Origin: Moraxella sp. TY6
Lineage (GTDB): Bacteria > Pseudomonadota > Gammaproteobacteria > Pseudomonadales > Moraxellaceae
DNA length: 64,000 nucleotides
NCBI RefSeq assembly: GCF_048551375.1
Contig: NZ_JBLYZJ010000006.1
Span: forward strand, 80,051-144,050
Direction: 5' to 3'
Of the stretch, positions 28,143-29,390 are shown one piece after another. The notes beneath the pieces were generated by a model, which searched no databases, was not told the origin of the DNA, and saw only the letters and a list, made by a program, of their open reading frames with translations. Each line of letters starts with the position of its first letter. Position 1 is the stretch's first letter. Both the position numbers and the translations under genes were made by a program.

Positions 28143-29390
28143 TTATTCATTTATACTTTTAATTTCATCTTTATCAAGCTCTTTACAATTTTTCATTAAA
28201 TCCGAATGGTCAAATAGTACAGGTGCTTTGTATTCATTCCCTTGTAATGCTTCGATAATAGCATTAGAGATGAGGTTTATATTTGAAAAAGAACCGCCAA
28301 TAAAGAATAGGTTTAACAAATCAGAAGTTAATATTTCATATCTCCCAATACGCTTTCCTCTATTATTTATCTCTTTTATTTTCATCATCCAACCACTTAC
28401 ATCCCTATTATTCGCTTCAAATAGTAATATACATTTCTTAAGCTTGGATAATGCTAAATATATCGGTGTCTTTGAATATGATTTCTTTTTTAAATCGTAT
28501 TTAAAAAAAGCTTTTGAAGTCAAAACTTCATTTATAACATTCACATCAATCGAAATCTTTGATGTCATACAATTCATCAAGCATGATAATGAAAAAAATT
28601 GCCACTCAGAACTAGGCAAAGTAATAGTTTCATCAATTGAGCAGGGCAAACGAATTTTTTCTAATAAGTTTTCCGCAGATGTATGGATAAGAAATCTATT
28701 ATTTTTTAAATCTTTTCTTAAACTATCTTGAAAGATTTTCAATTCATTTAATAAAATCTCAATATAAAGTTTTGCTTCTAAATCTCCTAAATAAATTAAT
28801 GAATATAATGAGTCCACAATTTCTCTAAAACTCTCAAACTGCCTAATCCAGTTTCCAGAAGGTAACTCTCCTTTACCCGATAGAGCATTCTTTGTATCGG
28901 TATTTCTTCCGATCTCCTCAACAAAATCTGAGATATATACTGCATCGTTGGAAAACTTTGTAGGTGCATTTATTACATTTTCTATTAAATCCTTATCAAA
29001 TAACTCAAGTTTATTTAAATATTTAGCCAATTCATTCCTAGTTTCTTTTAATTGCCAAACATCACGTCTTACAAATGATATAATTTCAAGCTTCCCTTGT
29101 TGGTGTAGTTTGTAAGCGTGTCTGTATTCCTGTCTAGTAATACTTATTTTGTTTGTCTTATCGAACCAACCGCCAACTCTAGTGCCAACGAGCAAAATAA
29201 AATAATCACATTCATCTATAAGATTTAAACAAGCATGGTAACTATGAACATTTCCATCAACTTTAAAGTCACTACTTTCTGAAGTAAAAACAATATATCC
29301 ATGTTGCTCCAAATAAAATTTTAAAGCAGACCGTAAATCTTTAAAGTCATAAATTGTTGATGAAATAAAAACTTTAGGTGTATTATTCAT
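28143..29390 (-). CDS. DUF4062-like (TIR/SLOG-like Rossmann) N-terminal domain protein with unknown C-terminal domain
   Basis: 415 aa; N-terminal KVFISSTIYDFKDLRSALKFYLEQHGYIVF..CLNLIDECDYFILLVGTRVGGWFD fits the DUF4062 consensus; RBS AAGGG; about 30% GC against about 46% in flanking genes. Confidence 0.65.
   Translation of the reverse strand: MNNTPKVFISSTIYDFKDLRSALKFYLEQHGYIVFTSESSDFKVDGNVHSYHACLNLIDECDYFILLVGTRVGGWFDKTNKISITRQEYRHAYKLHQQGKLEIISFVRRDVWQLKETRNELAKYLNKLELFDKDLIENVINAPTKFSNDAVYISDFVEEIGRNTDTKNALSGKGELPSGNWIRQFESFREIVDSLYSLIYLGDLEAKLYIEILLNELKIFQDSLRKDLKNNRFLIHTSAENLLEKIRLPCSIDETITLPSSEWQFFSLSCLMNCMTSKISIDVNVINEVLTSKAFFKYDLKKKSYSKTPIYLALSKLKKCILLFEANNRDVSGWMMKIKEINNRGKRIGRYEILTSDLLNLFFIGGSFSNINLISNAIIEALQGNEYKAPVLFDHSDLMKNCKELDKDEIKSINE

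What the first reader, a model, noticed from the sequence alone, without database searches (positions are those of the whole stretch)
28143..29390. Sharpest compositional discontinuity in the window sits inside an otherwise GC-normal operon
The DUF4062-like gene is about 30% GC over 1.25 kb, with boundaries coinciding almost exactly with its start and stop. The giant ATPase is 18 bp downstream and the Zn-ribbon gene 37 bp upstream, both at about 45% GC. Precise gene-sized replacement is characteristic of cassette exchange in defence loci (variable effector/sensor modules).
Basis: seen in the sequence. Interest (0 to 1): 0.6.

Follow-up and report, generated by a model that had tools for sequence, protein, structure and literature searches.

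The report
Foreign NADase defence gene inside operon
The AT-rich block is real: it is one horizontally acquired, self-contained anti-phage gene (a DUF4062/TIR-like NAD+-degrading protein of a kind first described in 2026) dropped into the short spacer between two genes of a conserved Moraxella operon, not a swapped module of that operon.

Summary
Observation confirmed. The 415-aa gene at 28143-29390 (-) has 28.9% GC (GC3 22.6%) in a 42.9% GC window. Composition change points fall 32 and 63 bp outside the gene. Its 3' edge is the largest GC step in the window at 400-600 bp scale. The deepest trough is elsewhere (44.0-45.3 kb, 26.0%).

The protein has an N-terminal DUF4062 (NIR, TIR-like) domain with the invariant catalytic Glu (E88, SITxxEY). 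Its confidently modelled ~215-aa C-terminal auxiliary domain has no known fold relative. Three 2026 preprints (Swarozyc, Evangelion, NIR/Vulcan) show that such single-gene DUF4062+AUX proteins are phage-triggered NADases causing abortive infection.

About 130 related operons lack the gene. The closest relative has the Zn-ribbon gene and the ATPase gene 38 bp apart, an empty slot. Another has a decayed PIN remnant there. Homologues (35-55% identity) are stand-alone genes in unrelated housekeeping contexts, and each is 12-17 GC points below its flanks.

So this is an insertion of an autonomous defence gene into an operon spacer, not effector exchange within a defence locus. The same window holds at least four more AT-rich defence-type islets wedged between housekeeping genes, for example between carA and carB. 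Verdict: new member of a known kind, modest interest.

The parts
28143..29390 (-). DUF4062(NIR/TIR-like)-AUX gene, 415 aa, intact. This is the AT-rich insert (GC 0.289, GC3 0.226).
   Evidence: ORF. Pfam PF13271 scores 70.1 bits against a cut-off of 24.7, E 1.8e-19. A 100% identical protein is annotated in 'unclassified Moraxella'. Composition.
29067..29390 (-). TIR-like core (aa 1-108): beta-alpha-beta fold with invariant F8, D15, D18, R20, G73-G74, S83-I84-T85.
   Evidence: AF2 model mb7eac9505b93, pLDDT 83.5. Foldseek PDB top hits are TIR-STING, SPARTA TIR-APAZ, RPS4/L6 TIR, SARM1 and nucleoside 2-deoxyribosyltransferase. Invariant columns in 75 sequences.
29127..29129 (-). Codon of E88, the predicted catalytic glutamate (motif S-I-T-R-Q-E-Y).
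   Evidence: Translation. Invariant in A1 and A2. It corresponds by motif to KpSwz E97, Eva01 E87-Y88, PsAvs2 E108 and Vulcan E98, whose mutation abolishes defence (papers read).
28794..29066 (-). Helical extension or 'stalk' (aa 109-199) with invariant R108, W112, P177, N180 and W181 (codon 28848-28850).
   Evidence: A conserved Trp after the core is required in Eva01 (W162) and forms a contact in KpSwz (W176). Equivalence to those residues is inferred.
28146..28793 (-). C-terminal auxiliary (AUX) domain, aa 200-415: compact alpha-rich domain with four short strands. Presumed phage-trigger sensor.
29391..29427 (-). 37-bp upstream spacer (Zn-ribbon stop to DUF4062 ATG) with a Shine-Dalgarno-like AAGGG. 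It is too short to hold a promoter.
   Evidence: Sequence. No terminator-like site on the - strand.
28125..28142 (-). 18-bp downstream spacer (DUF4062 stop to ATPase ATG at 28124). No terminator and no attC-like element.
   Evidence: Sequence..
29428..29967 (-). Zn-ribbon protein, 179 aa. It flanks the slot upstream and is part of the operon in this Moraxella lineage.
   Evidence: Pfam Zn_ribbon_TFIIB. It lies directly between the 668-aa gene and the ATPase in L100 and L101. It lies downstream of the ATPase in Oleispira-type loci and is unlinked elsewhere.
22119..28136 (-). Giant ATPase (2001-2005 aa; DUF3686, DUF7902, AAA). It flanks the slot downstream and belongs to the resident operon.
   Evidence: Pfam. 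Conserved next to the 668-aa gene in about 130 loci.
29996..30969 (-). A second, independent insert in the neighbouring slot: a RhuM + Fic/DOC gene (PADLOC candidate PDC-S23) split into two overlapping ORFs (30385-30969 and 29996-30397).
   Evidence: PADLOC PDLC04965 positions 2-191 and 206-324 of 327. Absent in L100, where the 668-aa gene and the Zn-ribbon gene are 10 bp apart.
30998..33004 (-). 668-aa protein with an N-terminal TM segment and a long E/A/K-rich coiled coil. It looks SPFH/flotillin-like by eye only, and is a resident operon gene.
   Evidence: Conserved at 57-85% identity upstream of the ATPase in relatives. No Pfam or PDB sequence hit.
33111..33572 (-). A third AT-rich insert in the same operon: a 153-aa ORF of unknown function (GC 0.30, GC3 0.22) between the 269-aa gene and the 668-aa gene.
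   Evidence: tblastn finds it in none of the 80 related loci.

Best explanation
The gene at 28143-29390 is a horizontally acquired, autonomous single-gene anti-phage system of the DUF4062 (NIR, TIR-like NADase) + auxiliary-domain class. It was inserted into the roughly 38-bp spacer between the Zn-ribbon gene and the giant ATPase gene of a resident, conserved operon.

Proposed working (inferred by homology):
1. In uninfected cells the protein is held in an auto-inhibited oligomer.
2. The C-terminal AUX domain recognises a phage-derived trigger, which is unknown for this lineage.
3. The TIR-like domains are then rearranged or clustered.
4. [quoted passage not shown]
5. NAD+ is depleted and the infection aborts.

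The gene has 37-bp and 18-bp spacers, lies on the same strand as its neighbours and has no terminator. It is therefore most likely transcribed by read-through from the host operon, and the ATPase remains expressed through it.

Shown here: the composition, the domain and the catalytic motif, the fold, the absence from relatives, the empty slot, and the stand-alone AT-rich homologues. Inferred: NADase activity, the defence phenotype, the trigger and co-transcription.
For: **Foreign origin.**
- GC 0.289 and GC3 0.226 against 0.43-0.47 in the flanks, with change points at the gene ends.

**Domain and fold.**
- PF13271 at 70 bits. E88 in SITxxEY is invariant in 75 homologues, as are F8 and W181.
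- The AF2 model has a TIR-like fold, and the top PDB matches are TIR NADases and NDT.

**Published function of the class.**
- DUF4062+AUX single proteins deplete NAD+ and abort infection, and this depends on the catalytic Glu. Sources: Swarozyc, bioRxiv 10.64898/2026.05.01.722283; Evangelion, 10.64898/2026.06.25.731849; NIR/Vulcan, 10.64898/2026.09.04.749371.

**Absence from related operons.**
- 0 of 80 genome loci and 0 of 80 metagenome loci related to the operon carry a DUF4062 gene. In about 125 of the roughly 132 loci where both flanking genes could be called, the gap between the 668-aa gene and the ATPase holds no plausible gene; its median is about 200-330 bp.
- The closest relative, L101 (Zn-ribbon 73%, ATPase 76% identity), has a 38-bp spacer and nothing else.
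- L100 has a 436-bp AT-rich gap holding only a PIN-domain remnant.

**Autonomy of the homologues.**
- Homologues at 53%, 45% and 38% identity are lone genes among housekeeping genes and unlinked to any DUF3686 ATPase.
- Each shows the same gene-sized GC trough: 0.283 vs 0.453, 0.312 vs 0.428 and 0.440 vs 0.568.

**Integrity and transcription.**
- The ORF is full length (415 aa against 404-436 in homologues) and keeps all invariant residues.
- No terminator-like site lies in either spacer.
Against: - No biochemical or phage data exist for this protein or its closest relatives.
- PADLOC-DB v2 (2023) gives no hit, as expected because the family was described in 2026.
- Foldseek E-values for the TIR match are weak (3e-3 and worse), although the probability is 1.0.
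- The AUX domain has no recognisable relative, so the trigger cannot be guessed.
- Not every tested DUF4062 protein defends. Eva02 gave no protection, and human NWD1, NWD2 and NPHP3 lack NADase activity.
- The neighbourhoods of the homologues I examined are housekeeping rather than classical defence islands.
- Co-transcription with the operon was not measured.
- Strains close enough for a nucleotide-level alignment of the insertion junctions were not available. The best had 73-76% aa identity in the flanking genes.
Confidence: 0.75

Rival explanations
1. One reading: the whole operon is a defence system, and the DUF4062 gene is its exchangeable effector or sensor module. It would have been swapped in by cassette exchange and would work together with the Zn-ribbon protein and the giant ATPase.
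For: - The genes are co-directional with 18-37-bp spacers. By the 50-bp criterion in the Swarozyc paper's methods this would be called a putative DUF4062 operon.
- A PDC-S23 (RhuM-Fic) candidate defence gene lies 2 genes upstream.
- DUF4062 is a recurrent effector fused to or next to NTPases such as Avs and NLR-like proteins.
- The slot content varies among relatives.
Against: - No DUF4062 gene occurs in about 160 related ATPase loci.
- The DUF4062+AUX homologues examined never sit next to a DUF3686 ATPase, and one genome carries both units on separate contigs.
- The protein already has its own sensor-like AUX domain.
- The operon triad has no PADLOC hit and is syntenically conserved like a core-genome operon.
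- The closest relative shows an empty spacer rather than an alternative effector.
- Equivalent AT-rich islets sit inside carA|carB and between two UbiH-like genes.
Confidence: 0.08
2. The gene is native, and its AT-richness reflects amino-acid or expression constraints (for example deliberate low expression or silencing) rather than recent horizontal transfer.
For: Homologues in three other hosts are also 12-17 GC points below their genomes, even in a 57% GC Enterobacter. AT-richness could therefore be a selected property of the family rather than a donor signature.
Against: - The gene is absent from all related operons, including the two closest.
- The nearest homologue is only 55% identical and lies in a different locus.
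- GC3 is 0.226, so the bias is strongest at synonymous sites.
- The taxonomic distribution is patchy across Proteobacteria and Bacteroidota, including large plasmids.
Confidence: 0.07
3. The gene is a decaying or inactive passenger: a domesticated or dead DUF4062 protein with no NADase or defence activity. It would resemble the neighbouring split RhuM-Fic gene and the PIN remnant in L100.
For: - Neighbouring inserts are visibly degraded.
- Some DUF4062 proteins tested in the literature are inactive.
Against: - The ORF is intact and of family-typical length.
- All 39 columns that are invariant across the 75-sequence alignment are retained, including E88, F8 and W181.
- The two-domain model is confident.
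- The protein is identical in two assemblies.
Confidence: 0.1

Closest known systems
Swarozyc (KpSwz, Klebsiella pneumoniae; Osinski et al., bioRxiv 10.64898/2026.05.01.722283)
   Same: - It is a single polypeptide with an N-terminal DUF4062 TIR-like NADase carrying a catalytic Glu, then a helical stalk, then a C-terminal AUX sensor that starts near residue 200.
- It is a stand-alone gene spread by horizontal transfer.
- The expected output is NAD+ converted to ADPR + Nam, followed by abortive infection.
- Our model likewise shows a core, helices, a short strand at the invariant GNW motif, and an AUX domain from about residue 200.
   Different: - The KpSwz sequence and structure were not available to the tools, and there was no PDB sequence hit.
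- The published residue numbers imply a different spacing between the catalytic Glu and the conserved Trp: 79 residues in KpSwz (E97, W176) against 93 here (E88, W181). This is an inference.
- The trigger (phage portal for KpSwz) is unknown here.
- The Enterobacter member of our family gave no blastn match in 5,426 complete E. coli genomes.
Evangelion (Eva01 of S. aureus pMW2 and lineages Eva02-04; Ibarra-Chavez et al., bioRxiv 10.64898/2026.06.25.731849)
   Same: - It has the DUF4062 core + AUX single-gene architecture.
- It shares the conserved N-terminal aromatic residue, the acidic S-x-T...E-Y catalytic region and a required Trp after the core.
- It shows NAD+ depletion and abortive infection, and it is carried by mobile DNA.
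   Different: - Eva01 has a short AUX (the truncation L177* and F212 lie within it) and is plasmid-borne in Firmicutes.
- Our protein is 415 aa with an AUX of about 215 aa and is chromosomal.
- tblastn of our protein against 72,556 plasmids finds Enterococcus DUF4062 genes over aa 5-113 only. It finds no Staphylococcus plasmid at E<=1e-3, although the Evangelion paper reports Eva01 homologues on 202 Staphylococcus plasmids in PLSDB.
NIR-domain systems Vulcan, Vesta and NIR-Avs2 (Le Mouellic et al., bioRxiv 10.64898/2026.09.04.749371)
   Same: They use the same effector domain with the same catalytic Glu logic. Vulcan is also a single protein, with an N-terminal NIR domain and a C-terminal protein-binding domain.
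   Different: - Vulcan's C-terminus is HEAT repeats. Ours is a compact mixed alpha/beta-hairpin domain rather than a solenoid.
- Vesta is a two-gene system with an alkaline phosphatase.
- Avs2 has a STAND NTPase. Neither partner is present here.
Canonical bacterial TIR NADase effectors (Thoeris ThsB/ThsA-type, SPARTA TIR-APAZ, TIR-STING)
   Same: They share the fold class and the Glu-dependent NAD+ cleavage. They are the best structural matches to the N-terminal domain.
   Different: - Sequence identity is only 10-20%.
- According to the 2026 papers, DUF4062 forms a separate family with distinct oligomer interfaces.
- No partner proteins such as Argonaute, STING or ThsA are present.

Membership tests
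Pfam PF13271 DUF4062 / NIR domain (TIR-like NADase) | Match to the family HMM above the curated gathering score | tested here: met
   70.1 bits against a cut-off of 24.7, E 1.8e-19. Residues 6-92 match profile positions 1-82 of 82.
Pfam PF13271 DUF4062 / NIR domain (TIR-like NADase) | Conserved catalytic glutamate in the S-x-T-x-x-E-Y region | tested here: met
   E88 in SITRQEY. It is invariant in the 18- and 75-sequence alignments. Equivalent residues are essential in KpSwz, Eva01, PsAvs2 and Vulcan.
Pfam PF13271 DUF4062 / NIR domain (TIR-like NADase) | TIR-like / nucleoside-2-deoxyribosyltransferase-like alpha/beta fold | tested here: met
   AF2 model with pLDDT 83.5. The top Foldseek PDB hits are TIR domains and NDTs with probability 0.99-1.0, but E-values are only 3e-3 to 1e-1.
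Pfam PF13271 DUF4062 / NIR domain (TIR-like NADase) | NAD+ hydrolysis to ADP-ribose + nicotinamide | not testable with these tools
   This needs an enzyme assay. It is inferred from homologues only.
Single-gene DUF4062+AUX defence systems (Swarozyc / Evangelion class) | One polypeptide with an N-terminal DUF4062 core and a C-terminal auxiliary domain, encoded as an autonomous gene | tested here: met
   The two-domain model. Homologues are lone genes in four unrelated contexts.
Single-gene DUF4062+AUX defence systems (Swarozyc / Evangelion class) | Phage-triggered abortive-infection phenotype | not testable with these tools
   This needs phage challenge of the cloned gene and of an E88 mutant.
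Single-gene DUF4062+AUX defence systems (Swarozyc / Evangelion class) | Association with defence islands or mobile elements | tested here: inconclusive
   In the window, a PDC-S23 candidate lies 2 genes away and several other defence islets lie within 64 kb. The neighbourhoods of the homologues are housekeeping. Only 3 plasmids and 1 viral contig carry a full-length relative.
Swarozyc sensu stricto (KpSwz clade) | AUX domain homologous to KpSwz AUX (HTH/winged-helix core, hairpin anchor, alpha-loop-beta module) | tested here: inconclusive
Evangelion type 01 (Eva01 clade) | Sequence relatedness to Eva01 over the core and a short AUX | tested here: not met
   tblastn against PLSDB gives no Staphylococcus hit at E<=1e-3. 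Enterococcus plasmid genes match aa 5-113 only. Our AUX is about 215 aa.
Vulcan (NIR + HEAT repeats) | C-terminal HEAT-repeat solenoid | tested here: not met
Component of the 668-aa / Zn-ribbon / DUF3686-AAA ATPase operon | Conserved co-occurrence with the operon across relatives | tested here: not met
   0 of about 160 related loci contain it. The slot is empty in the closest relative.
Integron gene cassette | An attC recombination site (about 57-141 bp imperfect inverted repeat) 3' of the ORF, with an intI/attI platform nearby | tested here: not met
   The 3' spacer is only 18 bp. The repeat finder shows only chance-level AT-rich repeats. No integrase was seen among the ORFs annotated around the locus.

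The most novel reading that the evidence does not exclude
The DUF4062 gene is one instance of an unrecognised habit of this Moraxella lineage. Small AT-rich defence genes are wedged, with 2-40-bp junctions and in the sense orientation, into the spacers of constitutive housekeeping operons. Examples are the Zn-ribbon|ATPase pair, the 668-aa|Zn-ribbon pair, carA|carB and UbiH-like|UbiH-like. This would imply either a dedicated insertion route that seeks gene boundaries, or strong selection for promoter hitch-hiking as a way to express and retain immune genes without defence islands. As a corollary, 'tight co-directional spacing' rules would mis-assign such genes to their host operons. Its AUX domain would also be a new sensor fold with a new phage trigger.
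Probability: 0.2. Interest if true: 0.6.

Novelty: new member of a known kind. Interest (0 to 1): 0.3.

Why it matters
- It adds a chromosomal Moraxellaceae lineage, with a structurally unassigned sensor domain, to the DUF4062/NIR NADase immune proteins that were first characterised in 2026 and that link bacterial immunity to human TEP1.
- It gives a clean natural example, with empty, occupied and decayed alleles of the same slot, of an autonomous defence gene embedded inside a non-defence operon.
- This is a practical warning for guilt-by-association and operon-based annotation. By spacing rules alone this gene would be filed as part of a 'DUF4062-ATPase defence operon', which the comparative data contradict.
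- The giant DUF3686/AAA ATPase triad that hosts it remains functionally unknown. It should not be labelled as defence on this evidence.

Tried and rejected
- **PADLOC and NCBIfam on the DUF4062 protein:** no hits. This is uninformative, because those libraries predate the 2026 descriptions.
- **PDB sequence search:** no hit for the DUF4062 protein or the 668-aa protein.
- **Placing the protein in Swarozyc:** accessions in the cluster look-up did not include the published IDs. The paper's supplement gives IDs only, not sequences. blastn of the Enterobacter homologue against 5,426 E. coli genomes found nothing. Membership stays open.
- **afdb50 fold library:** unavailable.
- **Insertion scars:** The repeat finder gave only AT-rich chance-level repeats. 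One is a 32-nt, 75% inverted repeat at the gene ends.
- **The 9-mer ATGAATAAT:** it sits at the gene start, the gene stop and the ATPase start, which is 3 of the 6 copies in the window. The start copy and part of the stop copy are native to the gene clade (L002). I therefore do not claim a target-site duplication.
- **tRNA-linked island or structured RNA:** none found.
- **Closer relatives of the locus:** genome and metagenome scans gave 65% identity or less. Only two short Logan contigs, L100 and L101, were closer.
- **Phage carriage:** negligible, with one full-length hit in 2.9 million viral contigs.
- **The antisense 218-aa ORF at 28075-28731 (+):** rejected as a by-product of AT-rich sequence. 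Its translation is low-complexity and rich in L, I, F and S.
- **Literature on DUF3686 and DUF7902:** no papers found.
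Full report
**1. The observation**

The window is 42.9% GC. All genes of the locus lie on the minus strand. The 415-codon ORF at 28143-29390 has GC 0.289, with 0.351, 0.291 and 0.226 at codon positions 1, 2 and 3. This is the lowest overall GC of the 49 ORFs of at least 120 aa tabulated. Its GC3 is the second lowest, against a median of 0.445, which gives a robust z of -3.4.

Only 1.1% of 1248-bp windows are this AT-rich. They map to two places only: this gene and 43.8-44.5 kb. Maximum-likelihood change points lie at 28111 and 29453, which is 32 and 63 bp outside the stop and start codons.

The neighbours are as described. The Zn-ribbon gene (29428-29967, GC 0.435) lies 37 bp upstream. 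The giant ATPase (GC 0.474) starts at ATG 28124, 18 bp downstream; the longest ORF instead begins at TTG 28136.

There are three qualifications:
- The 3' edge is the largest GC step in the window at 400-600-bp scales (delta 0.22-0.25). It ranks third at 1 kb. The 5' edge is only 0.13.
- The deepest trough is 44017-45264 (0.260).
- The operon also holds a 153-aa ORF at GC 0.30 and RhuM/Fic ORFs at GC 0.39.

Two assemblies of an unclassified Moraxella (GCA_048551455.1 and a second) carry the identical arrangement.

**2. What the gene encodes**

Pfam gives DUF4062 (PF13271) at 70.1 bits over residues 6-92. PADLOC v2 and NCBIfam give nothing.

A search of 5.8 billion proteins finds a full-length family of 404-436 aa, with 429 hits. 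It occurs in Moraxellaceae, Enterobacterales, Sphingomonadales, Rhodospirillales and Bacteroidota. The nearest non-identical member is only 55% identical.

In alignments of 18 and 75 members, the first 190 residues or so are strongly conserved. Invariant residues include F8, D15, D18, R20, G73-G74, S83-I84-T85, E88, R108, W112, N180 and W181. The C-terminal half is much more divergent.

The AlphaFold2 model (pLDDT 83.5) shows three parts:
- a beta-alpha-beta core (residues 1-108);
- a helical extension, with a short strand at the GNW motif;
- a separate C-terminal domain.

Foldseek against the PDB ranks TIR-STING, SPARTA TIR-APAZ, plant TIR domains, SARM1 and nucleoside 2-deoxyribosyltransferases first. 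The probability is about 1.0 but the E-values are weak.

**3. What is known about such proteins**

Three 2026 preprints characterise DUF4062.

- **Osinski et al.** show it is a TIR-like NADase. Single-gene DUF4062+AUX proteins ('Swarozyc') defend E. coli by abortive infection. KpSwz is auto-inhibited as a head-to-head oligomer. It is activated when its AUX domain binds the phage portal, and it needs E97.
- **Ibarra-Chavez et al.** describe 'Evangelion' (Eva01 on S. aureus pMW2). It has a DUF4062 core plus a short AUX, and requires F11, E87 and W162. It depletes NAD+, and escape mutations fall in phage recombination genes.
- **Le Mouellic et al.** rename the domain NIR. They show it acts as the effector of an Avs2, of Vulcan (NIR + HEAT repeats) and of Vesta (NIR protein + phosphatase). 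In each case the conserved Glu is essential.

The Moraxella protein carries the S-x-T-x-x-E-Y catalytic motif (E88, codon 29127-29129). It also has an N-terminal aromatic residue and an invariant Trp after the core (W181).

I therefore assign it to this class. I infer phage-triggered NAD+ hydrolysis as its mechanism. None of that activity is shown for this protein.

**4. Which lineage**

It is not Eva01-like. tblastn against 72,556 plasmids finds full-length relatives only on Agrobacterium, Methylomonas and Rhizobium replicons. Enterococcus plasmid genes match over residues 5-113 only. No Staphylococcus plasmid is found.

It is not Vulcan-like, because the AUX domain is not a HEAT solenoid.

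Its relation to Swarozyc sensu stricto could not be settled:
- The published residue numbers suggest a shorter Glu-to-Trp spacing than here (79 against 93). This is my inference.

I treat it as a distinct lineage of a known kind.

**5. Is it part of the operon?**

I fetched 80 genomic and 80 metagenomic loci encoding relatives of the ATPase N-terminal region. The sources are Psychrobacter, Faucicola, Moraxella lincolnii and M. boevrei, Oleispira, Xenorhabdus, Pseudomonas and others.

In nearly all of them a 269-aa gene, the 668-aa TM/coiled-coil gene and the ATPase are adjacent. The gap between the 668-aa gene and the ATPase is 20-560 bp and holds no plausible gene. None contains DUF4062, RhuM or Fic.

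Two short Logan contigs are the closest relatives:

| Locus | Similarity to window | Arrangement |
|---|---|---|
| L101 | Zn-ribbon 73%, ATPase 76% | Zn-ribbon stop, 38 bp, ATPase start |
| L100 | 668-aa C-terminus 93%, Zn-ribbon 70% | 668-aa gene, 10 bp, Zn-ribbon, 436-bp AT-rich gap, ATPase |

The L100 gap contains only stop-interrupted remains of a PIN-domain gene (Pfam PIN, E 2e-4).

So the Zn-ribbon gene belongs to the operon in this Moraxella lineage. It lies downstream of the ATPase in Oleispira-type loci and is unlinked in others. DUF4062 and RhuM-Fic are two independent insertions into two adjacent spacers.

A third AT-rich ORF (33111-33572) occupies the spacer between the 269-aa gene and the 668-aa gene. 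It is likewise absent from all relatives.

A few distant relatives have other things in the gap between the 668-aa gene and the ATPase:
- a 167-182-aa two-TM protein (L034, L062, with a remnant in L023);
- a 348-aa unknown ORF at 26% GC (L118);
- an IS200-like transposase (L125).

**6. Autonomy of the DUF4062 gene**

Homologues were located in three other genomes:

| Locus | Identity | Neighbours | Gene GC vs flanks |
|---|---|---|---|
| L002 | 53% | between TauE and BirA/CoaX genes | 0.283 vs 0.453 |
| L087 (Psychrobacter okhotskensis) | 45% | between an aminotransferase and a DJ-1/PfpI gene | 0.312 vs 0.428 |
| L089 (Enterobacter asburiae) | 38% | after the paa operon | 0.440 vs 0.568 |

All are lone genes. 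Each forms the same gene-sized GC trough. P. okhotskensis MD17 carries the ATPase operon on a different contig (L010).

These results fit a mobile, self-sufficient gene. They do not fit a module of the ATPase system.

**7. How it sits there**

- The 37-bp and 18-bp spacers contain no terminator-like hairpin, no attC-like element and no convincing direct repeats.
- No tRNA or Rfam RNA is nearby.
- The 9-mer ATGAATAAT occurs at the DUF4062 start, overlapping its stop, and at the ATPase start. That is 3 of its 6 occurrences in the window, where 1.6 in total are expected by chance.
- The start copy, and part of the stop copy, are native to the gene clade. This is at most a hint of microhomology.
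- Expression by read-through from the operon promoter is the simplest reading, and it is inferred.

**8. Context in the window**

The same 64 kb contains further AT-rich, defence-type islets wedged between housekeeping genes with very short junctions:
- PDC-M38A/B (15183-16978) lies in the segment between purE and a glycosyl-hydrolase-3 gene, alongside a 210-aa ORF.
- An HD-CE + HATPase_c_3 protein (42407-45535) lies between two UbiH-like monooxygenase genes.
- A four-gene block (48405-51364) lies between carA and carB. It comprises a ShosT/PsyrT-like PRTase, a 187-aa ORF, a PtuA-like AAA_15/21 ATPase and a PIN protein. Its outer junctions are 2 bp and 20 bp.

This shows that the insertion sites are not restricted to defence loci. 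It weakens any guilt-by-association argument that the ATPase operon is a defence system.

**9. Verdict**

The compositional observation is real. The gene is a foreign defence cassette in a slot that varies among relatives. It is not an exchanged effector of a defence operon. It is an autonomous DUF4062/NIR NADase gene inserted into a spacer of a conserved operon of unknown function.

Novelty: a new member, and probably a new lineage with an unassigned sensor domain, of a kind described in 2026. Interest is modest. The more unusual aspect is the repeated intra-operon placement of defence islets in this genome.

Noticed in passing
window 47152-54627: carA (47152-48402) and carB (51385-54627) are separated by four AT-rich genes (GC 0.32-0.38). 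These are a ShosT/PsyrT-like phosphoribosyltransferase, a 187-aa ORF, a PtuA-like AAA_15/AAA_21 ATPase and a PIN-domain protein. The outer junctions are only 2 bp and 20 bp, so this is a defence-type islet inside a biosynthetic operon.
   Followed up: partly
window 40505-46828: A 1042-aa HD-CE + HATPase_c_3 protein (42407-45535) lies between two UbiH-like FAD monooxygenase genes. Its 3' half (44017-45264) is the lowest-GC stretch of the window at 26.0%. It has no PADLOC hit.
   Followed up: partly
window 15183-16978: An AT-rich two-gene PADLOC candidate system, PDC-M38A/B (an AbiLi/AriA-like AAA_15 ATPase plus DUF3226). With a 210-aa ORF (14534-15166) it lies between purE and a glycosyl-hydrolase-3 gene.
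   Followed up: no
window 29996-30969: The RhuM ORF (30385-30969) and the Fic/DOC ORF (29996-30397) overlap by 13 bp. Together they cover one PDC-S23 profile (positions 2-191 and 206-324 of 327). This is a single candidate defence gene split by a frameshift. It is absent from the closest relative L100.
   Followed up: partly
window 33111-33572: A 153-aa ORF of unknown function with GC 0.30 and GC3 0.22. It sits in the spacer between the 269-aa gene and the 668-aa gene, is absent from all 80 related loci, and has no Pfam or PADLOC hit.
   Followed up: partly
window 22119-34432 and loci L006-L085, L105-L184: A conserved triad comprises a 269-aa protein, a 668-aa TM + coiled-coil protein (SPFH/flotillin-like by eye only) and a roughly 1900-2100-aa DUF3686/DUF7902/AAA ATPase. 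It occurs in more than 130 loci of Gammaproteobacteria. There is no PADLOC hit, and no paper in the library mentions DUF3686 or DUF7902, so its function is unknown.
   Followed up: partly
window 28116-28124, 28142-28150, 29382-29390: The 9-mer ATGAATAAT marks the DUF4062 start, overlaps its stop, and marks the ATPase start. That is 3 of the 6 copies in the window, where 1.6 are expected. It may be microhomology or coincidence, since the start copy is native to the gene clade.
   Followed up: partly
L118:4473-5842; L125:3224-3772; L034:9230-9733; L062:9350-9898: Other occupants of the gap between the 668-aa gene and the ATPase in distant relatives are: a 348-aa unknown ORF in a 1369-bp gap of 26% GC, an IS200-like Y1 transposase, and a 167-182-aa two-TM protein with a decayed copy in L023.
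   Followed up: partly
L101:60-192: In the closest relative, the spacer between the 668-aa gene and the Zn-ribbon gene (about 135 bp) holds a perfect 12-bp-stem hairpin (TTGGGTAAATTG / CAATTTACCCAA... region). It also has a reading-frame fragment, 'LLSQDSKFDDY', that resembles a PIN-domain C-terminus. This suggests another decayed insert.
   Followed up: no
window 38236-38820: A 585-bp AT-rich (about 30% GC) non-coding gap lies between a rhomboid-family gene and an OmpA-family gene. It contains no ORF of 80 aa or more.
   Followed up: no
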